Sequence record: MK962756
DNA length: 64,000 nucleotides
Strand: one strand, 5' to 3'
Source of the DNA: Shigella phage JK42
The notes under the pieces were generated by a model. That model was not told the DNA's origin, did no database searches, and saw only the letters and a list, made by a program, of their open reading frames with translations. Shown here one piece after another: positions 2,520-28,827 of the stretch (its first letter is position 1; the number at the start of each line of letters is the position of its first letter). Position numbers and translations under genes: made by a program.

Positions 2520-3620
2520 TTACGCTGTGAAGATTTTATCCCACATCGCAACAACTGCATCTCGGTTATACTTCTTCCATACTGCTTCAGCACGTTTAAC
2601 TCGAGCTTCGTATGTGTCAGTGAATTCTAATACAGCTTTTGTGTAAAGCGCAACTACTTCTTTCTTAGGAGTAGATGAATCAATTTCTACACGCACAGTA
2701 TCTGGGTCGTATTCAAATGTCGCATGAGGATAATCCTTAAAAACTAACTGGATTACAGGGACACCTTTAGAGATGGCTTCAATAGAACTATTCTCTACCG
2801 TACCTGTGTCAGGACAAGTATTAATAAGTGCTTTAGCTGTTTTAAGACGTTCCATGATTTCACTGTGTGGAGCATCAATAATAACAGGATATTTAGCCGG
2901 TGGCGCCCATTTGCTTGGACAGTATCCTGCACCATTTTCGCCTAGTGCTTTAATCGCTTCAAGAGCAACATCAGTACGACGCATTTTAGTGTCATAACGT
3001 TGTGCACTAATAATCAGATCCGTCGCCGGAAGAACTTCTGGCTTTTCAGTCAAACAAATAACCGGATAATCTTCGGCTTCAAACAACGGATTTGCTCGCC
3101 AATAATCATAATCAATTTTGTCAGTCAGACCTGAAGTCATATAACAATATTTACGTTCAAATTCACGGAAGGCTTTAGTAGGAGCATAACTCTTACCACC
3201 ATTCTTATGAATTTGAATAGTCTGGTCCCAAATTTGAACAATGCCACGAGATACCGGTTCAAATGGTGTTGCCATAAAATTCTTATGAACTTTAGAGAGA
3301 CCTGCGTCTTTAATTGCCTGAACGGTTAGTTTAGTCGGTTCCATAGTAACAACAAAATCGTATTCATGAATGCCGGCTAGTTCAACAATCTTACGAGCCA
3401 TAGTATAACTCATACCTAGACTGAATTTAGTCAGATGACCAACAGGATGATGATTAACCTTCCAATCACCAAATGTGTCATTATCAAAGCCGATATAATC
3501 AATATCAGCACCGATGGACACAAGATATTTCAACACATTTAAATGTACTGCTTCAAGACCACCTTGTACACGTTCTGGGTTAAATGGGACTGCGCGAGAT
3601 GGGATAAACATAACTTTCAT
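2520..3620 (-). CDS. GT-B fold glycosyltransferase (GT4-like); candidate DNA hmC sugar transferase
   Basis: 366 aa; N-terminus MKVMFIPSRAVPFNPERVQGGLEAVHLNVLKYL and C-terminal ...TGTVENSSIEAISKGVPVI resemble retaining GT-B enzymes; inserted between rIIA.1 and gene 39 where T4 has gene 60/mobA. Confidence 0.6.
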   Translation of the reverse strand: MKVMFIPSRAVPFNPERVQGGLEAVHLNVLKYLVSIGADIDYIGFDNDTFGDWKVNHHPVGHLTKFSLGMSYTMARKIVELAGIHEYDFVVTMEPTKLTVQAIKDAGLSKVHKNFMATPFEPVSRGIVQIWDQTIQIHKNGGKSYAPTKAFREFERKYCYMTSGLTDKIDYDYWRANPLFEAEDYPVICLTEKPEVLPATDLIISAQRYDTKMRRTDVALEAIKALGENGAGYCPSKWAPPAKYPVIIDAPHSEIMERLKTAKALINTCPDTGTVENSSIEAISKGVPVIQLVFKDYPHATFEYDPDTVRVEIDSSTPKKEVVALYTKAVLEFTDTYEARVKRAEAVWKKYNRDAVVAMWDKIFTA

Positions 3621-21490: not shown

Positions 21491-21853
21491 TTAAAAGAAT
21501 TTAAATTTTTTCTTGGTTCGTTCATTAAAAGCTTGTTGTACTTGCATTGTAACACATTTTTCAACGTGTGGTGCAAGTTCTGCTTTTCTGTCCTGGTCAA
21601 GAACTGCAAAGTCCATTACGATTTTACCATCAACCCAGTCTAGTTTTGTAATATAGACTATATGATGGGAACCGTCTTCAAGTGTAATCAGAATCTCTTG
21701 AATGACATTTTCCATTGCTGAACGGATAATTTTAAGAGATTCATTAAACACTCGTTCTTTGCGAATGTCTTCCCCTTCCGAAGAAGGGGATTCATCAACG
21801 ATTTCTAGATTTAAATCATCGAGATTATTCATCGAAATCTTCCATTTCGTCAA
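21491..21853 (-). CDS. 40: gp40-like protein (by position)
   Basis: 120 aa between 41 and uvsX as in T4; no motif confirmation. Confidence 0.45.
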   Translation of the reverse strand: MTKWKISMNNLDDLNLEIVDESPSSEGEDIRKERVFNESLKIIRSAMENVIQEILITLEDGSHHIVYITKLDWVDGKIVMDFAVLDQDRKAELAPHVEKCVTMQVQQAFNERTKKKFKFF

Positions 21854-22997
21854 GGTCGTTTTCTATATCTGCTGCAGATGGAGCATCAGAAGTTTTAACC
21901 GGAACTTTAGTTGTTGCTTTGCAATTAATAAGGTCGTTAACAGCGTCATCAACTTCTTTAATAGAAGAGATAGCACCTAGTTTATATTTAGTTTCAATTG
22001 CATCTCGGAAAGGTTTGTGTTTAAACAAAGGTCCCCAGAATTCTACACAATCAGTAGCTTTAGCACGCCATGATTTCTCTTCACGAATCATTTCACCTGT
22101 TTCTTCGTCAAGGAATTCACGAGCATACCACCCAGCTTTAGGCTTAACTACAAAACCAATTTCAGTTGCCATTTCTAACAAGCCACTGAATGGGTCGATA
22201 CCACCATCAAAATTAACTGTGATTGGGAAAGTAGATTTCTCTTTAACTGTACGAGATTTTTCTGCTTTCAGTGTGAAATCGTACCCAGTCAATTCTGTAC
22301 CTTCTTTAACCTGACGTTTAGAGATAAAGAATACAGTGTTAGCCGAGTAAAGAATACCTGTACCACCGCCCATAATCTCTTTAGGATACAATCCGCCGAT
22401 TTCCATTGCTGTATGGTTAATTGCAACACACGGAATATCTTTAATAGTCAGATAAGGAGTCACAATGCGGAACAAAGATTTAAGTGCCTTAGCACGAGAC
22501 ATATCACCTACAACTTTCTCGTTCAACGCATCTTCGGTTTCTTTCTTAGATGCAGTATTACCGATTGAATCGATAAAGATAATAACTTTATCACCGCGTT
22601 CAATCGCGTCAAGCTGATTAGTCATATCAACTTTAAGTTGTTCGACAGATTGAATCGGAGTATGAACTACACGGTCTAAATCAACACCCATTGAACGAAA
22701 ATAAGATTCTGAAGCACCGAATTCTGAGTCATAAAACAAACAGATTGCATCTTTATATTTCTTCATATATGCTGCAACCATGGTCAGCCCAAACAATGTT
22801 TTAAAGTGTTTAGAAGGAGCAGCAAAAATAGTTAAGCCTGATTGCAACCCGGCATTCAGTGCACCACCTAGTGCAATATTCAACATCGGAATACGAGTAG
22901 GGACTTCATCACGATTATTAAACAGCTTAGACTTAGTCAAGTCTGCAGTCATTTTAGAAGTAGAAGCTTTAATCAGACGAGATTTTAAATCAGACAT
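21825..22997 (-). CDS. uvsX: UvsX recombinase (RecA-like)
   Basis: 390 aa; MSDLKSRLIKASTSK... and ...GWYAREFLDEETGEMIREEKSWRAK... match remembered T4 UvsX. Confidence 0.92.
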   Translation of the reverse strand: MSDLKSRLIKASTSKMTADLTKSKLFNNRDEVPTRIPMLNIALGGALNAGLQSGLTIFAAPSKHFKTLFGLTMVAAYMKKYKDAICLFYDSEFGASESYFRSMGVDLDRVVHTPIQSVEQLKVDMTNQLDAIERGDKVIIFIDSIGNTASKKETEDALNEKVVGDMSRAKALKSLFRIVTPYLTIKDIPCVAINHTAMEIGGLYPKEIMGGGTGILYSANTVFFISKRQVKEGTELTGYDFTLKAEKSRTVKEKSTFPITVNFDGGIDPFSGLLEMATEIGFVVKPKAGWYAREFLDEETGEMIREEKSWRAKATDCVEFWGPLFKHKPFRDAIETKYKLGAISSIKEVDDAVNDLINCKATTKVPVKTSDAPSAADIENDLDEMEDFDE

Positions 22998-23095
22998 TGT
23001 ATTTTTCCATAGGCATCATTATATTTTACTCATGTTTAAAAGATAAGATGATTATATACTAAGGGTTATACAGCATTTAAAACTTTAAATGGCTC

Positions 23096-23644
23096 TTAAC
23101 GAGCCCATTTGATAATTTCTGTAATCAAATAATTACGTTCGCTTGCATTAAATCCTATAACTTTGTTAGCACCATCATGATTAAGTAATTGATACGTTTG
23201 GATTTTGTTATGAATTGCAAACTCTTCAAAATGTGAAATGACTGTATTAAAACCGAATGAAGACAAAGTAATAAGGTCGTCTTCAAAACTTTCAGTCATT
23301 TCGTTACGTGTTAAAATAATTGTGAACACATCATGGTTTTGGCAAAGACGAACATAGTCCTGTTCATAAACGTCAAGAATCGAGTCCGCATCTTGTCGAA
23401 TACGTCCATAAACCCAGTTACTAATATATCCACGGTCTAACAGATAAATCTTAGTAGGGTCTAAATAATTCAACATCGTTTCGAAACAGCCAACTTCATT
23501 TCGAGACTTAACATCGAAACGTCCATCAACTGTTCGTTTAGGGAAATCAATCTTTACATATCTTTCACTAATTTCCATTATGTCATTAATGAAAGTTGTT
23601 TTACCAGCATTATCCGGGCCATCTACTAAAATAATTTTAGCCAT
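23096..23644 (-). CDS. P-loop nucleotide/nucleoside kinase-like protein
   Basis: 182 aa; Walker A ILVDGPDNAGKTT in the thymidylate-kinase/deoxynucleoside-kinase style; occupies the T4 beta-gt locus. Confidence 0.5.
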   Translation of the reverse strand: MAKIILVDGPDNAGKTTFINDIMEISERYVKIDFPKRTVDGRFDVKSRNEVGCFETMLNYLDPTKIYLLDRGYISNWVYGRIRQDADSILDVYEQDYVRLCQNHDVFTIILTRNEMTESFEDDLITLSSFGFNTVISHFEEFAIHNKIQTYQLLNHDGANKVIGFNASERNYLITEIIKWAR

Positions 23645-23645
23645 T

Positions 23646-24545
23646 TTATTCCTCGATTACGACATCTTCATATTTAGGTATATTATACGGCGAAGAAATT
23701 AAAGCATTAAAGTAGATGAACTCACCAAGACCTGGATGGAATACTTCTTCAGGATTTTCGAAATATTGAATTTTCGGACGTCCTTTAAGAATTTGATAGT
23801 ACTCAGTTTTAGTTGGTTTAAAAATTCGAATCAGCGCTTCTTCAGGATACTTATTTCTGTCGAAGCTATTATTTGGATCGGTTATATAAAGCGGTTGACC
23901 TAATTGAATTGCGCATTCAACAACTTGTTCAAAACGATAGCATGGGTCACTAATTCGAAATGGATGAAAAATACCATCTAGATGAATAGGAGCCAAATCA
24001 CCTACAAGACGCTGCATGATGGAAGGACGTATAACTTTCTGCGTTACGATAATCTTATTACCATCTGCACCAGCGTTAACCAGCACTTCTTTTTGACGTT
24101 CATTCAACACAGTAGTTTGAAGTGAACGATTAACCGACAACATATCGGTTTTTAAGAATTCGTCAATATAAAAACGTGGTTTATTAGGGTCTGCAGTGAT
24201 ATTGAAATTGAATTCCACATCAAAAGCGCCGTCATATCCAGTGATATCTGTGATTAGAAAATCACAATCATAATAAGCAATTAATGAATCAACCACAAAT
24301 TCATTTTCAGACCAGAAATATTTACGAGTGTTATACGCGTTATCTTTATACCATAATGGAACAAACTTAAATTCTGGAAAAAGACGTTCGCATTCTTTAA
24401 TATCAGATGCATTACGTGGATATGTAATCACATCACCCGGATTAGCACGGTGCAAATGAAGTTGGAAGTTGCCATCCTTAAGGATAGCATACTGTCCAGT
24501 TTCATAAGACCGCATACTCAAGATAGGTACGCGGAAAATAGCCAT
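23646..24545 (-). CDS. hypothetical protein (beta-gt positional replacement)
   Basis: 299-aa ORF between the kinase-like gene and gene 42; no recognisable motif. Confidence 0.5.
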   Translation of the reverse strand: MAIFRVPILSMRSYETGQYAILKDGNFQLHLHRANPGDVITYPRNASDIKECERLFPEFKFVPLWYKDNAYNTRKYFWSENEFVVDSLIAYYDCDFLITDITGYDGAFDVEFNFNITADPNKPRFYIDEFLKTDMLSVNRSLQTTVLNERQKEVLVNAGADGNKIIVTQKVIRPSIMQRLVGDLAPIHLDGIFHPFRISDPCYRFEQVVECAIQLGQPLYITDPNNSFDRNKYPEEALIRIFKPTKTEYYQILKGRPKIQYFENPEEVFHPGLGEFIYFNALISSPYNIPKYEDVVIEE

Positions 24546-25261
24546 TAGTCAAGGAATCCTTTAACATAATCAAAATCACGTTCAAACACATGGGCACTTA
24601 CCATGGTATGAGTATAATCACCAACTTCTACACCACATTCATTAGCGATATAATGAAGTAATTTTCCTTGGAGATAAAAATCCAACTGCATAACAACAGC
24701 ACAGTTCTGAGAACGCATATGACAGTGGGTATAAAGCTTACCATCACGAATATAATAAGTCACTGAGTCAGTACATGGATATTCAAGCGTTTCGTCCGAA
24801 TCAAGCAAAGCCTGATCAGAACTTTCTAGAATTTGGAACACAACTCTTCGAGAGTTAGGCTTCTCTTTAAGTTCTTTTAGAAGAGCTGGTAATTGAGCCG
24901 CAATGCGAGGACCATAGAAAGTGTTGAAGTTCGCCGGCAAAACATCTGATTTTGGTTTAGAAATAAATTTAGCGACATTAGGATATGCCTTAAACGCTTC
25001 TTCTGCGTTGGTACCACCAGAAATCATAAACTTCCAGAAGTCTTCGGCATATTCATAAGAGATGCGGTTAATACGTGGGTCGGTCATTTTGAATGATGAT
25101 GGAGTGTCAACAACTACTGTCATAGACCCAATTTCATTACAACGTCCAATACGAGAATCAGTTACGAATTCCGGGTTTTCTAAAATTTCACGATTGACTG
25201 CTTTAAATGCGGTTTGAAAATCTGCGGCTTTGATATATTTCATTGTGTTATGTTTTCCCAT
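24545..25261 (-). CDS. 42: dCMP hydroxymethylase (thymidylate-synthase fold)
   Basis: 238 aa; SRRVVFQIL...YPCTDS...YIRDGKLY...HMRSQN aligns by eye with the T4 gp42 / thymidylate synthase active-site region. Confidence 0.7.
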   Translation of the reverse strand: MGKHNTMKYIKAADFQTAFKAVNREILENPEFVTDSRIGRCNEIGSMTVVVDTPSSFKMTDPRINRISYEYAEDFWKFMISGGTNAEEAFKAYPNVAKFISKPKSDVLPANFNTFYGPRIAAQLPALLKELKEKPNSRRVVFQILESSDQALLDSDETLEYPCTDSVTYYIRDGKLYTHCHMRSQNCAVVMQLDFYLQGKLLHYIANECGVEVGDYTHTMVSAHVFERDFDYVKGFLD

Positions 25262-25302
25262 GTTTACCTCAATACAATTATTATATACTCAATTCGTAAA
25301 GC

Positions 25303-25542
25303 TTATTTGAATTTCTTGGCAATGTTGATATAACGTAAAGCTTCAGCATCGATACTTCCAAGAACACTATGAAGAAATGCATCAGCGTAGTATTCCAATT
25401 GAACAGGTTCTTTAATCACTTTAGCCGCTTTAGTTTCAAACAGGCCCATCAGGGCCTTTTTAAGAATTTGTTCATTAGTGTTCAGTTTCATAGTCAAAAT
25501 CTCTTCATTAAGTTGGTGGTTAAAAGTTTTTCTAGAAATCAT
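25303..25542 (-). CDS. hypothetical small protein
   Basis: 79-aa ORF. Confidence 0.4.
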   Translation of the reverse strand: MISRKTFNHQLNEEILTMKLNTNEQILKKALMGLFETKAAKVIKEPVQLEYYADAFLHSVLGSIDAEALRYINIAKKFK

Positions 25543-26714
25543 TCCGGGTACCTCAAAGCGTCATCAGAGTTAGTTATATCAATAATAGATATAGAGTTTT
25601 CTGCTAACCCGTTTTTAGATAATTGACGTTTATAATATCTTTCACAATATGTACACGTCGTCCCGCAGATTTCATTAGCACAATCGAAATCTGGATGTCT
25701 GAACCACCTTTTTTCTAAAAAGCCATCTAACAAAGAGGTTTCAATATTTACTGTATGTGAAAACTCAGTTTCGTTTTCAAGAGTGAAAATAGTCTCTAAA
25801 GGCTTCCACAGTTCTAACAAATTACCTTCAAACTTTTCAGAAGCGTATGCTTCAAGAACTTTCAAAATGTAGTCTGTGCTACCTGTACGTCCTGAAACTT
25901 TGAATTGAGTGATACCAATATCATTATAAAGTTTCAAATCTTGAGGACGAACAAAACGAGTTCTCAGCCAGTTAAATGGGTCTGTATCACGAGCTTTAAT
26001 GCAGTGTTGCATTGGATATCCATTTAAGGATTTAGCATCATCAGCGGTAACATCAGTACTATGGAAAATATAGCAAGAGTCACGATAGCTACAATGTGTT
26101 GTATACCCTTTACCAGCATTAGAACAGAACTCATTTACAAGAACTTCAAATATTATATTGTTCTTATTGCAAAACTCTGCTGCACGCTTCAGGAAAGAAA
26201 CTGAACGGTTCTTATGAATTCCACAGCAGACCTTTTTGATATTATATTGGTCATGCAAGTATTTGATTTGAGTTACAGCATCGACATGTAGAATTGTTGA
26301 AACTTCAATCTCAATGTCTTTATTGACTTCACGAACAATTTCCATAACAACAGGGTTAGCGATAGTAATACGCCATACGCCTATTGACCAAAGATACTGA
26401 ACATAATCCTGAATAGCTTTCTTCTTCCACTCAACTAGTTCTCTTTTTGAACCAGGATTTATCGTGTTGAGTGTATAGTTAAAGCAAATACCTAATTCGT
26501 TACAACGTTTAACGTAATCTTCTAACATCTTTTTGTCAACGTCAGGAAGCCTAAAATCAGGTCTGGCTGCTACAAAAGCCATTTCTCTTGTAGAGCCGTA
26601 TACTTCGTTTATCAAGCTATTAGGATAAGTTTTATTGAGCTCTACGATTTTATCAAGAAGAGCTAAATCAAAATTCGTTCCGATTTTAAAAGTATTCATT
26701 TTTTTGCATCTCAC
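25539..26714 (-). CDS. Cys-rich protein with C-terminal CX4CX3CX2C cluster (possible Fe-S enzyme)
   Basis: 391 aa; ...FCSNAGKGYTTHCSYRDSCYIFH... and ...DFDCANEICGTTCTYCERYY... ; the CGTTCTYC segment fits the CX3CX2C pattern with an aromatic residue before the last Cys. Confidence 0.45.
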   Translation of the reverse strand: MRCKKMNTFKIGTNFDLALLDKIVELNKTYPNSLINEVYGSTREMAFVAARPDFRLPDVDKKMLEDYVKRCNELGICFNYTLNTINPGSKRELVEWKKKAIQDYVQYLWSIGVWRITIANPVVMEIVREVNKDIEIEVSTILHVDAVTQIKYLHDQYNIKKVCCGIHKNRSVSFLKRAAEFCNKNNIIFEVLVNEFCSNAGKGYTTHCSYRDSCYIFHSTDVTADDAKSLNGYPMQHCIKARDTDPFNWLRTRFVRPQDLKLYNDIGITQFKVSGRTGSTDYILKVLEAYASEKFEGNLLELWKPLETIFTLENETEFSHTVNIETSLLDGFLEKRWFRHPDFDCANEICGTTCTYCERYYKRQLSKNGLAENSISIIDITNSDDALRYPE

Positions 26715-26755: not shown

Positions 26756-27157
26756 TTATAGATTTGGTTTATATGATTTAAATGTTTCGAATTCGCCTTT
26801 ATTCATAAGAGCTTTGAATTCATCAGGACGCATAGCTTTGTCGTCGATAATCCAATCATATACTGGTTTATGTGTTAGCAAATTATGGTACTTCAAACCA
26901 ATGTTTTCCAAGTTCTGAATCAGACTTGGGAGAATGTCAATTGCTATACGACCAGGACCTACTGACTTCATACCACGAGCAGTGTAAAGCGTTATGGTAT
27001 GCCCTGCATCATACAGGGCATTAATGGCAGACACCATTTCGACGTCTGGTTTGAAGTTCACGTAATCACGATTGTTATTCCATTCCGTGATGCAATCATC
27101 GACATCAAAACAAAGATTAAGCATGTTTTCTACACGGTGCATTAGATTCGTTCCCAT
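26756..27157 (-). CDS. HAD-superfamily phosphatase-like protein
   Basis: 133 aa; motif I-like FDVDDCIT, later T, K and IIDDK acidic motif. Confidence 0.5.
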   Translation of the reverse strand: MGTNLMHRVENMLNLCFDVDDCITEWNNNRDYVNFKPDVEMVSAINALYDAGHTITLYTARGMKSVGPGRIAIDILPSLIQNLENIGLKYHNLLTHKPVYDWIIDDKAMRPDEFKALMNKGEFETFKSYKPNL

Positions 27158-28827
27158 TGATGAGTGATATCGCCACCGATTGGACGATAGGAAACACCAG
27201 TTTCTTTATCAGTTAGTACCCATTTACCAGGATTTTTTGTAATCAGAGTAGCCGTTACAGGTTCTGCTACGTCATAACTAATAGAGCCGTCCTGAAGTAC
27301 ACGGCCCATGTTACGTAATTGCTTAGTCAGAAGTTCCATACCTTTATAATATGCGGCTACCGCTTTAAGTGGATTATTCTTGAAATAACCACCTAATGCA
27401 ATCCAGATAATTGCCACTGCCAAATGATGATACTCGTTAAACGAACTCATCTTTCCATATTTGTAAACTAATGGATTGATGTTAATAGTCACATTACAAG
27501 TTGTTTCATCAATAGTAAACTGCCCCCAGGTCGGATTAGCATTGAATTCATCATAACCTGAAACAGCATAAAGCACTTTAGCTTCATCATACAATTTTGG
27601 CCCGTAAATCTTGGTTTCGCCAAAATATCCACGAGGGTCGATAAACTTGACTTCGCCGTTATCAGTAATCATAGTATTACTGAAGTTCGGGTCACCATGA
27701 ATAACAGAGTACTGTCCCTGAGAACGGTTATGATAACGAATAAGGTGTTCTAAAGCTTGTTTCAGCATTGGCTTCAGACGTCCAATCTTAGTGTAGTTCA
27801 CATGTGTGATTTTACCAAATGAATCAATCAATGGTTGAATGCTTTCACAACGATCAATAACTTTCGTATAGAATTCTTTAGTGAAATCACGACGAACAGT
27901 TTCAGGACTTACAAAATAAGTGTCTGTGCTGAATTTCAGTGCATCTAAAATTGCATCAATAATTTGTGGACGAGCAAGACTTGATTTTGATTTAATATAT
28001 TCAAATGCCGGCTTACCTTTAATGCGTTCCATTTCAAAGTTATTTTCATTAACAGAAACTAACTGAGGAACTGAATCTGATTTCACTTTCAAATACCACG
28101 AAATCTCATCTTTCTGAAGAGCTCGACCATGTTCGGTTAATGCGAATTTAGTTACAGTTTCTTCGCCAATTTCAACTGCATTAAAACTACGATTAAGTTC
28201 ACGAACTTCATGAGCCTTTTCAAGTTTAGGCATATCACCTAAATCAATTATATTCATAAGCTCTGATTTATTGAATGCGCTGCCGTAAAGGAATTCTACG
28301 AAATCACGTCCTTTGCAGTATTCATGAATTTCCTCATCGGTAGAACCCATATAGAATTCCCAGTCTTTGAACTGATAAATTCCTACAACATTACCACCTG
28401 TTGAACCTACGTTAGTGATATTTTCACCGTCGAAATTATATCGACATTCGTCACCCTTAACATAGATTGCGTTAACATTCCAAGACCATGAACCAAAATC
28501 AGGAATAATATCACACCAGTTAACAATTACATTATGGCCGTCTAAATCTTTGTGTAATTTAGCAAGAGCATAAGCAGAACCATACGCTTCATCAACTGTA
28601 CGAATAGTCACATTGAACCCTTCTTGCTCACAATAAGCTCGAACAGTTTCAGCAAATTTTGAATGAACTACTACAATAATTTCATCTGCGCCAAGGTCAG
28701 AATAAATTGTATACAAATTGCTCAGAATAGTGTCTTGTTTATAATTAACAAGCACCTTAGGAATATGATGCGTTATTGGATACAAACGAGTTGCCAGTCC
28801 AGCACCAAGAATAACAGCTTTTTTCAT
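27142..28827 (-). CDS. bifunctional sugar-1-phosphate nucleotidyltransferase (N-term) / APH-fold anomeric sugar kinase (C-term)
   Basis: 561 aa; N-term MKKAVILGAGLATRLYPITHHIPKVLV resembles RmlA/MurU-type NTases; C-term ...VIHGDPNFSNTMITDNGEVKFIDPRGYFG is the HGDxxxxN...D kinase motif of APH/choline-kinase/AmgK-type kinases. Confidence 0.7.
   Translation of the reverse strand: MKKAVILGAGLATRLYPITHHIPKVLVNYKQDTILSNLYTIYSDLGADEIIVVVHSKFAETVRAYCEQEGFNVTIRTVDEAYGSAYALAKLHKDLDGHNVIVNWCDIIPDFGSWSWNVNAIYVKGDECRYNFDGENITNVGSTGGNVVGIYQFKDWEFYMGSTDEEIHEYCKGRDFVEFLYGSAFNKSELMNIIDLGDMPKLEKAHEVRELNRSFNAVEIGEETVTKFALTEHGRALQKDEISWYLKVKSDSVPQLVSVNENNFEMERIKGKPAFEYIKSKSSLARPQIIDAILDALKFSTDTYFVSPETVRRDFTKEFYTKVIDRCESIQPLIDSFGKITHVNYTKIGRLKPMLKQALEHLIRYHNRSQGQYSVIHGDPNFSNTMITDNGEVKFIDPRGYFGETKIYGPKLYDEAKVLYAVSGYDEFNANPTWGQFTIDETTCNVTININPLVYKYGKMSSFNEYHHLAVAIIWIALGGYFKNNPLKAVAAYYKGMELLTKQLRNMGRVLQDGSISYDVAEPVTATLITKNPGKWVLTDKETGVSYRPIGGDITHQWERI

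What the first reader, a model, noticed from the sequence alone, without database searches (positions are those of the whole stretch)
23096..24545. Kinase-like and unknown 299-aa genes occupy the T4 beta-gt locus
Between uvsX and gene 42, where T4 has beta-glucosyltransferase, there is a 182-aa P-loop protein with a thymidylate-kinase-style Walker A (LVDGPDNAGKTT) and a 299-aa protein with no recognisable motif. Given the locus and the neighbouring sugar module, these are candidates for extra steps, for example a second transferase for multi-sugar chains or a nucleotide kinase supplying the pathway.
Basis: inference. Interest (0 to 1): 0.5.

Follow-up and report, generated by a model that had tools for sequence, protein, structure and literature searches.

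The report
Known phage cytosine-arabinosylation transferase and kinase
The two genes are real and belong to an already published RB69-type phage pathway that replaces cytosine with sugar-coated 5-hydroxycytosine: the 299-aa protein is most likely the transferase that attaches the first arabinose, and the 182-aa protein is a thymidylate-kinase-like nucleotide kinase whose exact substrate is still unknown.

Summary
Both ORFs exist exactly as described: 23096-23644(-), 182 aa, and 23646-24545(-), 299 aa. The window is a Mosigvirus, 99.7% identical to phage APCEc01. The ORFs are orthologs of RB69 ORF045c (98.4%) and ORF046c+047c (99.3%).

A 2026 NAR paper (PMC13326640) already lists these as 'nucleotide kinase' and 'arabinosyltransferase 1', from predicted folds only. 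My models agree:

The neighbouring 'gene 42' is not a hydroxymethylase. It carries the 5-hydroxy-dCMP synthase signature, so the modified base is arabinosyl-5-hydroxyC, not a glycosylated hmC.

Synthase, transferase and kinase form a translationally coupled trio. Transferase and kinase co-occur in 50 of 53 informative loci and in about 345 of 50,697 phage genomes.

The 299-aa gene also occurs in mono-arabinosylated phages. The second transferase lies at 2520-3620, and its copy number (0, 1 or 2) tracks the extra sugars. So the 299-aa protein is the first transferase, not an extra one.

Still open: the kinase's substrate, and whether the first sugar is added to the nucleotide or to DNA.

The parts
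23096..23644 (-). 182-aa thymidylate-kinase-fold P-loop kinase (RB69 ORF045c ortholog). Predicted kinase for the modified dCMP.
23646..24545 (-). 299-aa minimal GT-B-fold glycosyltransferase (RB69 ORF046c+047c, DLP3 gp79 and Thanatos TH1_063 ortholog). Predicted first, base-proximal arabinosyltransferase.
24545..25261 (-). 5-hydroxy-dCMP synthase (thymidylate-synthase homolog, RB69 gp48 ortholog). First gene of the trio; its stop overlaps the transferase start (TAATG).
   Evidence: Pfam PF00303. Near-identical to PDB 9iqc/9ir2/9iqu, E 8e-161. The motifs EYPC and RSQNCAVVMQLD give L143E, C146, D169N and N177D, the diagnostic signature in PMC13326640.
25270..25302 (-). Promoter-like element (GCTTTAC...TATATAAT) and GAGG ribosome-binding site upstream of the synthase. 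Likely start of the three-gene unit.
   Evidence: Sequence. The AGTATATAAT core recurs upstream of uvsX (repeat D1). Reading it as a T4-type middle promoter is inference from the T4 consensus, not tested.
23040..23095 (-). Intergenic region after the kinase with a second promoter-like element (TGCTGTA...TATATAAT) for uvsX. Downstream boundary of the unit.
25539..26714 (-). U32-family protein (RB69 gp50 ortholog) inside the cluster. Role unknown.
   Evidence: Pfam PF01136, E 7.5e-11. phrog_5757.
26756..27157 (-). HAD-like phosphatase (AfhF / RB69 gp51 ortholog), converting Araf-1,5-P2 to Araf-1-P.
   Evidence: phrog_1238. The function is as reported for HY126 AfhF in PMC13326640, section 27.
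27142..28827 (-). Bifunctional sugar-1-kinase and UDP-arabinose pyrophosphorylase (AfhE / RB69 ORF53_52c ortholog).
   Evidence: Pfam NTP_transferase in the N-terminal part and kinase-like matches in the C-terminal part. PMC6024577 and PMC13326640.
29009..29644 (-). SIS-domain arabinose-5-phosphate isomerase (RB69 gp55 ortholog).
   Evidence: Pfam SIS. Annotated as arabinose 5-phosphate isomerase in NRG-P0074.
2520..3620 (-). 366-aa GT-B glycosyltransferase (RB69 ORF003c / HY126 GT ortholog). The chain-extending second arabinosyltransferase.
   Evidence: E 2e-248 to PDB 9iqz/9ir0, 'phage HY126 glycosyltransferase'. 99.2% identical to RB69 ORF003c. Present only in Mosigvirus (1 copy) and Acinetobacter phages (2 copies).

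Best explanation
The two ORFs are genes 2 and 3 of a three-gene unit: 5-hydroxy-dCMP synthase, then a GT-B glycosyltransferase, then a TMK-like kinase. The three are translationally coupled. This trio is the conserved core of the phage pathway that replaces cytosine with O-glycosylated 5-hydroxycytosine.

Proposed pathway:
1. The synthase makes 5-hydroxy-dCMP. This is shown by others for near-identical proteins.
2. The 182-aa kinase uses ATP to convert the modified dCMP to the diphosphate, feeding dNTP synthesis alongside the general T4-type dNMP kinase. This is inferred from fold, motifs and linkage.
3. The 299-aa enzyme transfers the first arabinofuranose from UDP-Araf to the 5-hydroxyl. The neighbouring SIS, AfhE and AfhF genes make the UDP-Araf. 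In the conventional model this happens on DNA after replication. It is inferred from fold, orthology and phyletic pattern.
4. The 366-aa transferase at 2520-3620 adds the second arabinose.

My confidence differs by claim: about 0.8 that the 299-aa protein is the first transferase, about 0.6 that the kinase acts on a modified dCMP, and about 0.45 that the first sugar is added on DNA rather than on the nucleotide.
For: - Orthology to RB69 ORF045c and ORF046c+047c, DLP3 gp79 and Thanatos TH1_063. PMC13326640 assigns these 'nucleotide kinase' and 'arabinosyltransferase 1'.
- GT-B fold for the 299-aa protein. TMK fold and motifs for the kinase.
- The neighbouring gene carries the 5hodCMP-synthase signature and is near-identical to solved HY126 structures.
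- Stop/start overlaps join the three genes: TAATG, and TAA-A-ATG preceded by a GAGG.
- 50 of the 53 informative loci with a transferase hit also have a kinase hit (56 loci in all; three end at the transferase). The synthase-transferase-kinase order is adjacent in most of the 51 IMG/VR loci among them, including cassettes with no arabinose genes nearby.
- The genes occur in 348 and 343 of 50,697 phage genomes, with near-identical genus spectra.
- The second transferase occurs in only 211 records, with 0, 1 or 2 copies. These match mono- (LC53, Thanatos), di- (RB69, Bas46, NP) and tri-arabinosylated (DLP3) DNA (PMC13326640; PMC13390438).
- The sugar-activation pathway is complete without this kinase (PMC13326640, section 27).
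Against: - No enzyme activity has been shown for either protein in any text I could read. DLP3 gp79 was inactive on 5hoC-DNA with UDP-Araf or UDP-Arap (PMC13326640, section 26, data not shown).
- RB69's T4-type dNMP kinase (gp159) already phosphorylates 5hodCMP (same paper). A plain 5hodCMP kinase would therefore be redundant, yet the gene is retained almost universally.
- The Thanatos ortholog was reported to make UDP-xylose from UTP and xylose-1-phosphate (PMC12838424).
- Some relatives of the kinase are fused to an MBD4-type DNA glycosylase domain, which hints at a DNA-level role.
- Two key papers could not be read: He et al., Nat Chem Biol 2026, and Mahler et al., Cell Host Microbe 2025.
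Confidence: 0.55

Rival explanations
1. The first sugar is added before replication. The 299-aa enzyme arabinosylates the free nucleotide 5hodCMP. The TMK-like kinase exists to phosphorylate the bulky Araf-5hodCMP, which the general dNMP kinase cannot handle. The phage polymerase then incorporates the sugar-bearing dCTP directly, and only later sugars are added on DNA.
For: - The gene order synthase, transferase, kinase equals this reaction order, and the genes are translationally coupled.
- The kinase is retained with the transferase although gp159 already phosphorylates 5hodCMP (PMC13326640).
- The kinase-transferase pair persists even where no TS homolog is nearby (L050).
- DLP3 gp79 was inactive on 5hoC-DNA, and the authors state that they cannot tell the nucleotide stage from the DNA stage (PMC13326640, section 26).
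- The best structural matches are enzymes with small phosphorylated acceptors, such as sucrose-phosphate synthase.
- From my own knowledge: naked 5-hydroxycytosine in DNA is mutagenic and is a substrate of host endonuclease III. Avoiding it would be advantageous.
Against: - Every known phage DNA glycosylation is post-replicative.
- Expressing the synthase with gp159 in E. coli puts 5hodC into DNA, so 5hodCTP is made and used (PMC13326640).
- The fold matches do not discriminate, because the DNA-acting second transferase hits the same structures.
- L048, L049 and L051 show a transferase relative without a kinase nearby.
- No direct data exist.
Confidence: 0.25
2. The kinase does not act on free nucleotides. 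It acts at DNA level, either as a nucleobase kinase like the 5-hmdU DNA kinases of thymidine hypermodification, or as a DNA-directed partner of the transferase.
For: - P-loop kinases that phosphorylate a base hydroxyl within DNA exist in phage hypermodification clusters (PMC8989533).
- Relatives of this kinase (E 1e-19 to 1e-10) are fused to an MBD4-type HhH-GPD DNA glycosylase domain that keeps its catalytic Asp. They sit between a D169N-type synthase and a transferase relative.
Against: - hhalign against the 5-HMUDK M6 gp54 aligns little beyond the P-loop (82%). Against a true TMK it gives 97.2% across the nucleotide-binding motifs.
- The P-loop Asp, the FPxR-like motif and the DR motif, which bind a mononucleotide in TMKs, are invariant.
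- The final product is an ether with no phosphate. Displacing a phosphate at a ring sp2 carbon is chemically unattractive (inference).
Confidence: 0.1
3. The 299-aa protein is not a transferase but a UDP-pentose pyrophosphorylase, as reported for its Thanatos ortholog TH1_063.
For: PMC12838424 detected UDP-xylose by LC-MS after incubating TH1_063 with UTP and xylose-1-phosphate.
Against: - The fold is GT-B, not a nucleotidyltransferase fold.
- The cluster already has a dedicated pyrophosphorylase, AfhE (PMC13326640).
- The only control mentioned in the passages I read was a no-enzyme reaction, so a co-purified host enzyme is not excluded.
- The acceptors tested there lacked the 5-hydroxyl, so the lack of transfer is uninformative.
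- The gene also occurs in cassettes without pentose genes.
Confidence: 0.05
4. One reading: the 299-aa protein is an additional transferase for di- or tri-sugar chains on hmdC, and the kinase is a general dNMP or thymidylate kinase.
For: The position beside the sugar module. The TMK-like Walker A motif.
Against: - The gene is present in mono-arabinosylated phages, and a different gene tracks chain length.
- The base is 5-hydroxy-C, not hmC.
- The kinase scores far below the dTMP-kinase cut-offs: 15.7 bits against 83.
- The kinase is confined to phages with this modification.
Confidence: 0.05

Closest known systems
RB69 gp46:47 / DLP3 gp79 / Thanatos TH1_063 ('arabinosyltransferase 1', PMC13326640)
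   Different: The ORF is intact here. In the RB69 reference it is split by a sequencing error. The function is still only predicted for the whole family.
RB69 gp45 / DLP3 gp78 / RL38J1 gp214 ('nucleotide kinase', PMC13326640)
   Same: Ortholog of RB69 ORF045c, 98.4% identical. TMK-like fold.
   Different: No substrate has been assigned in the literature I could read. My analysis adds the motif comparison, the linkage statistics and the fusion relatives.
T4 beta-glucosyltransferase
   Same: Same genomic slot between uvsX and the TS homolog. Same broad GT-B fold class. Both O-glycosylate a C5-oxygen substituent of cytosine.
   Different: No sequence-profile similarity (hhalign probability 0.1%). 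The acceptor is 5-OH rather than 5-CH2OH. The donor is UDP-arabinofuranose rather than UDP-glucose. The protein is 299 aa and acidic (pI 5.1), against 351 aa and basic (pI 9.05).
Thymidylate kinase (PF02223 / TIGR00041)
   Different: Scores below the family cut-offs. It is shorter, at 182 aa. The segment aligned to the TMK base-binding region is about 17 residues shorter and is poorly modelled. It always occurs in a cytosine-modification cluster.
5-hmdU DNA kinase (5-HMUDK, e.g. phage M6 gp54)
   Same: A small phage P-loop kinase encoded next to a TS homolog in a base-hypermodification cluster.
   Different: Only the P-loop region aligns. No aGPT-Pplase partner is present in the window. The TMK nucleotide-binding motifs are present here and absent in gp54.
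T4 gp1 dNMP kinase
   Same: The likely role: phosphorylating a modified dCMP.
   Different: A different family. RB69 has its own gp1 ortholog (gp159), which already accepts 5hodCMP (PMC13326640).

Membership tests
GT-B fold glycosyltransferases (GT4-like) | Two Rossmann-like domains with an inter-domain cleft | tested here: met
GT-B fold glycosyltransferases (GT4-like) | Sequence match to a curated glycosyltransferase family model | tested here: not met
   No Pfam or NCBIfam hit. No PDB sequence hit at E <= 10.
GT-B fold glycosyltransferases (GT4-like) | Donor-binding basic and acidic residues in the C-terminal domain | tested here: inconclusive
   R197, K246, H270-P271-G272 and a conserved Glu at 275 lie after C-domain strands. 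No residue-level superposition was possible.
GT-B fold glycosyltransferases (GT4-like) | NDP-sugar-dependent glycosyl transfer | not testable with these tools
   Needs an enzyme assay.
Phage 5-hydroxycytosine 'arabinosyltransferase 1' (RB69 gp46:47 type) | Orthology to RB69 gp46:47 and DLP3 gp79 | tested here: met
   99.3% and 45.9% identity at full length.
Phage 5-hydroxycytosine 'arabinosyltransferase 1' (RB69 gp46:47 type) | Adjacent to a D169N-type 5hodCMP synthase | tested here: met
Phage 5-hydroxycytosine 'arabinosyltransferase 1' (RB69 gp46:47 type) | Present in phages with a single sugar and no second transferase | tested here: met
   LC53 and Thanatos carry it. No Serratia or Shewanella phage has the 366-aa transferase. 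LC53 is mono-arabinosylated.
dTMP kinase (TIGR00041 / PF02223) | Score above the curated family cut-off | tested here: not met
   TIGR00041 gives 15.7 bits against a cut-off of 83.25. PF02223 is matched at E <= 1 by 12 of 19 family members, with best E 2e-4; the window protein itself has no PF02223 match.
dTMP kinase (TIGR00041 / PF02223) | TMK fold with P-loop, FPxR and DR(Y/H) motifs | tested here: met
dTMP kinase (TIGR00041 / PF02223) | Specificity for dTMP | not testable with these tools
   The genomic context argues for a cytosine derivative. This is inference only.
5-hmdU DNA kinase (5-HMUDK) | Homology to M6 gp54 beyond the P-loop | tested here: not met
   hhalign 82%, with meaningful alignment at the P-loop only.
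5-hmdU DNA kinase (5-HMUDK) | Co-occurrence with an aGPT-Pplase / amino-acid:DNA transferase | tested here: not met
   None in the cluster. The HhH domain fused to relatives is MBD4-like.
T4 beta-glucosyltransferase | Sequence homology to T4 beta-gt | tested here: not met
   hhalign probability 0.1%.
5-hydroxy-dCMP synthase (the neighbouring gene) | Catalytic Cys plus L143E, D169N and N177D (E. coli ThyA numbering) | tested here: met
   EYPC and RSQNCAVVMQLD. E 8e-161 to PDB 9iqc.

The most novel reading that the evidence does not exclude
The first arabinose is attached to the free nucleotide (5hodCMP) by the 299-aa enzyme. The TMK-like kinase is a dedicated kinase for that glycosylated nucleotide. 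The phage replicase therefore polymerises a sugar-bearing dCTP. This would be a pre-replicative DNA glycosylation route, unlike every known phage DNA glycosyltransferase system.
Probability: 0.22. Interest if true: 0.8.

Novelty: already known. Interest (0 to 1): 0.3.

Why it matters
The genes themselves are already catalogued, so the window adds only another Mosigvirus copy.

What remains worth knowing is mechanistic. These phages keep a second, TMK-like kinase glued to the first transferase, although their general dNMP kinase already handles 5-hydroxy-dCMP. It is also unknown whether the first sugar goes onto the nucleotide or onto DNA.

The answer would decide whether glycosylated dNTPs are natural polymerase substrates. 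That matters for phage counter-defence biology, for engineering phages with modified DNA, and for enzymatic synthesis of glycosylated DNA.

Tried and rejected
- **Sequence-family searches of the 299-aa protein** (Pfam, NCBIfam, PDB phmmer) gave nothing. Only the fold comparison was informative.
- **Profile comparison of the 299-aa family** with T4 alpha-gt, T4 beta-gt and the window's 366-aa transferase found no similarity. 'Diverged beta-gt' is rejected.
- **Is the kinase a 5-HMUDK-type DNA base kinase?** I compared it with M6 gp54. Only the P-loop aligned, so membership is rejected, although a DNA-level role is not excluded.
- **Does the HhH domain fused to kinase relatives resemble M6 gp51 (aGPT-Pplase)?** No. 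It is MBD4-like.
- **Net charge as a clue to DNA binding.** The 299-aa protein has pI 5.1, but T4 alpha-gt is also acidic (pI 6.1). Uninformative.
- **Sugar-kinase role for the 182-aa protein.** Rejected, because the UDP-Araf pathway is complete without it and it occurs in cassettes without arabinose genes (PMC13326640).
- **Rfam, repeat and terminator scans** of the region showed no RNA element or terminator of note.
- **Two key papers were not available**: He et al. 2026 and Mahler et al. 2025. One literature search for Afh gene names returned only noise.

Full report
**Observation.** The window holds ORFs at 23096-23644(-), 182 aa, beginning MAKIILVDGPDNAGKTT, and 23646-24545(-), 299 aa. 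They lie between uvsX (21825-22997) and a thymidylate-synthase homolog (24545-25261). In T4 the same interval holds segA and beta-gt. The DNA is 99.7% identical to Escherichia phage APCEc01 and about 99% identical to many other Mosigvirus (RB69-like) genomes. Both ORFs are conserved genes: PHROG matches have E 4e-45 and 3e-156, and the 299-aa protein has 138 homologs.

They report that the individual transferases were inactive on 5hoC-DNA. [quoted passage not shown] They also showed that RB69's T4-type dNMP kinase, gp159, converts 5hodCMP to 5hodCDP. Two further papers could not be read here: He et al. 2026 on HY126 and its Afh genes, and Mahler et al. 2025 on Aat.

**Identity of the window genes.**
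- tblastn gives 98.4% identity of the 182-aa protein to RB69 ORF045c.
- The 299-aa protein is 99.3% identical to RB69 ORF047c+046c. It matches in two pieces, consistent with the known frameshift error in the reference.
- The 299-aa protein is also 45.9% identical to DLP3 gp79 and 47.5% identical to Thanatos TH1_063.
- The neighbouring synthase reads ...EYPC... and ...RSQNCAVVMQLD... This gives L143E, C146, D169N and N177D in E. coli ThyA numbering, the published signature of 5hodCMP synthases.
- The synthase is near-identical to PDB 9iqc/9ir2/9iqu.
- The 366-aa ORF at 2520-3620 is about 98% identical to PDB 9iqz/9ir0, 'phage HY126 glycosyltransferase', and 99.2% identical to RB69 ORF003c.

Profile comparison with T4 alpha-gt, T4 beta-gt and the window's own 366-aa transferase finds nothing. 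The shared locus with beta-gt is therefore positional only.

**The kinase.**
- hhalign of the family profile against a bona fide TMK gives 97.2% probability and E 3e-11. The alignment covers 98 columns spanning the P-loop, the FPxR-like motif and the DRxxxSNxVY motif.
- Invariant residues include G9, D11, K15, T16, F34-P35-K36, D70-R71 and R113, consistent with an active NMP kinase.
- It is not a member of the curated dTMP-kinase families. TIGR00041 gives 15.7 bits against a cut-off of 83, and PF02223 is sub-threshold.
- The segment aligned to the TMK base-binding region is about 17 residues shorter and poorly modelled.
- An exhaustive profile search of 1.84 billion representatives finds only 45 clusters at E <= 1e-10. 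It is a small, phage-restricted clade.

**Anatomy and linkage.** The synthase stop overlaps the transferase start (TAATG). The transferase stop is one base before the kinase ATG, which is preceded by GAGG. A promoter-like AGTATATAAT element with an upstream GCTTTA or TGCTGTA box occurs before the synthase and again before uvsX. This frames a three-gene unit; reading the elements as T4-type middle promoters is inference.

Among the 56 loci in hand with a transferase-family hit (51 of them IMG/VR loci fetched with the transferase profile), 50 also have a kinase-family hit. Three of the six exceptions end at the transferase. The trio also occurs in non-T4 myoviruses as flavodoxin/FMN-reductase, synthase, transferase, kinase, with no arabinose genes within 6 kb (L029). 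Among 50,697 phage genomes the transferase occurs in 348 and the kinase in 343, with almost identical genus spectra.

**First or second transferase?** The 366-aa transferase occurs in only 211 records. It has one copy in Escherichia and Shigella Mosigvirus and two places per record in Acinetobacter phages. It has no copy in Serratia, Klebsiella, Yersinia, Proteus or Shewanella phages.
- LC53 (Serratia/Prodigiosinella) is mono-arabinosylated and Bas46 is di-arabinosylated.
- RB69 and NP are mono- and di-arabinosylated (PMC13326640; PMC13390438).
- DLP3 is tri-arabinosylated and Thanatos is mono-arabinosylated.

The copy number of the 366-aa type (0, 1, 2) thus tracks the extra sugars, while the 299-aa type is universal. 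This supports the 299-aa protein as the first, base-proximal transferase.

**What the kinase does.** The sugar pathway is complete without it: SIS isomerase, then the AfhE kinase domain, the AfhF phosphatase and the AfhE pyrophosphorylase domain. The kinase also occurs where arabinose genes are absent. A sugar-kinase role is therefore unlikely.

The TMK-type nucleotide-binding motifs favour a mononucleotide substrate. The simplest reading is a 5hodCMP kinase. That is redundant with gp159, yet the gene is almost never lost and stays coupled to the transferase, even in a locus without a TS homolog (L050: dUTPase-like, GT, kinase-like, transferase-like, U32).

This keeps alive a more novel reading. 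The transferase may act on 5hodCMP, and the kinase may phosphorylate the glycosylated nucleotide, in the same order as the genes. I put this at roughly 0.2-0.25.

A third reading is a DNA-level kinase like 5-HMUDK (PMC8989533). It is weakened because M6 gp54 aligns only at the P-loop. It is not excluded, because relatives of the kinase are fused to an MBD4-type DNA glycosylase domain.

**Conflicting claim.** PMC12838424 reported that Thanatos TH1_063, an ortholog of the 299-aa protein, forms UDP-xylose from UTP and xylose-1-phosphate. That is a nucleotidyltransferase reaction, which does not fit a GT-B fold. The cluster has its own pyrophosphorylase, and the only control mentioned in the passages I read was a no-enzyme reaction. 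I consider it unlikely to be the native function.

**Verdict.** The finding is real but already described in near-identical phages. It is wrong on the base chemistry and on which sugar step. Novelty: already known. The only part of real interest is the unresolved substrate of the kinase and the stage of the first glycosylation.

Noticed in passing
window 25539-26714 (-); also L049:6954-8051 and L050:5783-6865: A U32-family protein (RB69 gp50 ortholog) sits inside the cluster. From my own knowledge, the U32 family includes RlhA and TrhP, which are needed for 5-hydroxylation of C and U in rRNA and tRNA. In two metagenomic phage loci a distant transferase relative is directly followed by a U32 gene, with no thymidylate-synthase homolog nearby. 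L050 reads dUTPase-like, GT, kinase-like, transferase-like, U32, PolIII-alpha, RecA. This could be an alternative or additional pyrimidine hydroxylation route. The NAR 2026 paper labels gp50 only as 'sugar or heterocycle reductase'.
   Followed up: partly
L055:8001-9074, L056:127-1092, L059:1446-2390 (proteins P0179, P0185, P0180): Relatives of the kinase (E 1e-19 to 1e-10) carry a C-terminal MBD4-type HhH-GPD DNA glycosylase domain. Its catalytic Asp is aligned (E 1e-9 to MBD4 structures). In L055 and L059 these fusions sit directly after a D169N-type 5hodCMP synthase. In L056 and L059 they are followed by a distant relative of the 299-aa transferase that shares the FSMRSY N-terminal motif. 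In L055 an FMN reductase, a SIS isomerase and an AfhE-like gene follow instead. One further relative (P0246) is fused to a UDG-superfamily domain. The reason for the fusion is unexplained.
   Followed up: partly
L029:4240-7576: A compact cassette of flavodoxin/FMN reductase, a 166-aa ORF, the synthase, the transferase and the kinase lies in a non-T4 myovirus contig beside tail-sheath genes. No sugar-activation genes lie within 6 kb. This suggests that the trio is a portable, sugar-independent core, possibly using a host UDP-sugar.
   Followed up: partly
window 2520-3620 (-): The 366-aa second arabinosyltransferase (RB69 ORF003c ortholog) lies in the same window, between rIIA and the topoisomerase gene. 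It is about 98% identical to the solved HY126 glycosyltransferase (PDB 9iqz/9ir0).
   Followed up: yes
window 23040-23095 and 25270-25302 (-): A repeated AGTATATAAT core, preceded by a TGCTGTA or GCTTTA box, resembles T4 middle (MotA-dependent) promoters. It occurs upstream of uvsX and of the synthase.
   Followed up: partly
L001:12199-12960 (phage NRG-P0074) versus window 27142-27157: In the close relative NRG-P0074 a homing endonuclease gene is inserted between the HAD phosphatase and the AfhE-like gene. In the window these two genes overlap directly and no endonuclease is present.
   Followed up: no
window 25303-25542 (-): A 79-aa ORF (phrog_8601, unknown function, RB69 gp49 position) lies between the U32 gene and the synthase. 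It is conserved in Mosigvirus and in some relatives, but absent from many other clusters.
   Followed up: no
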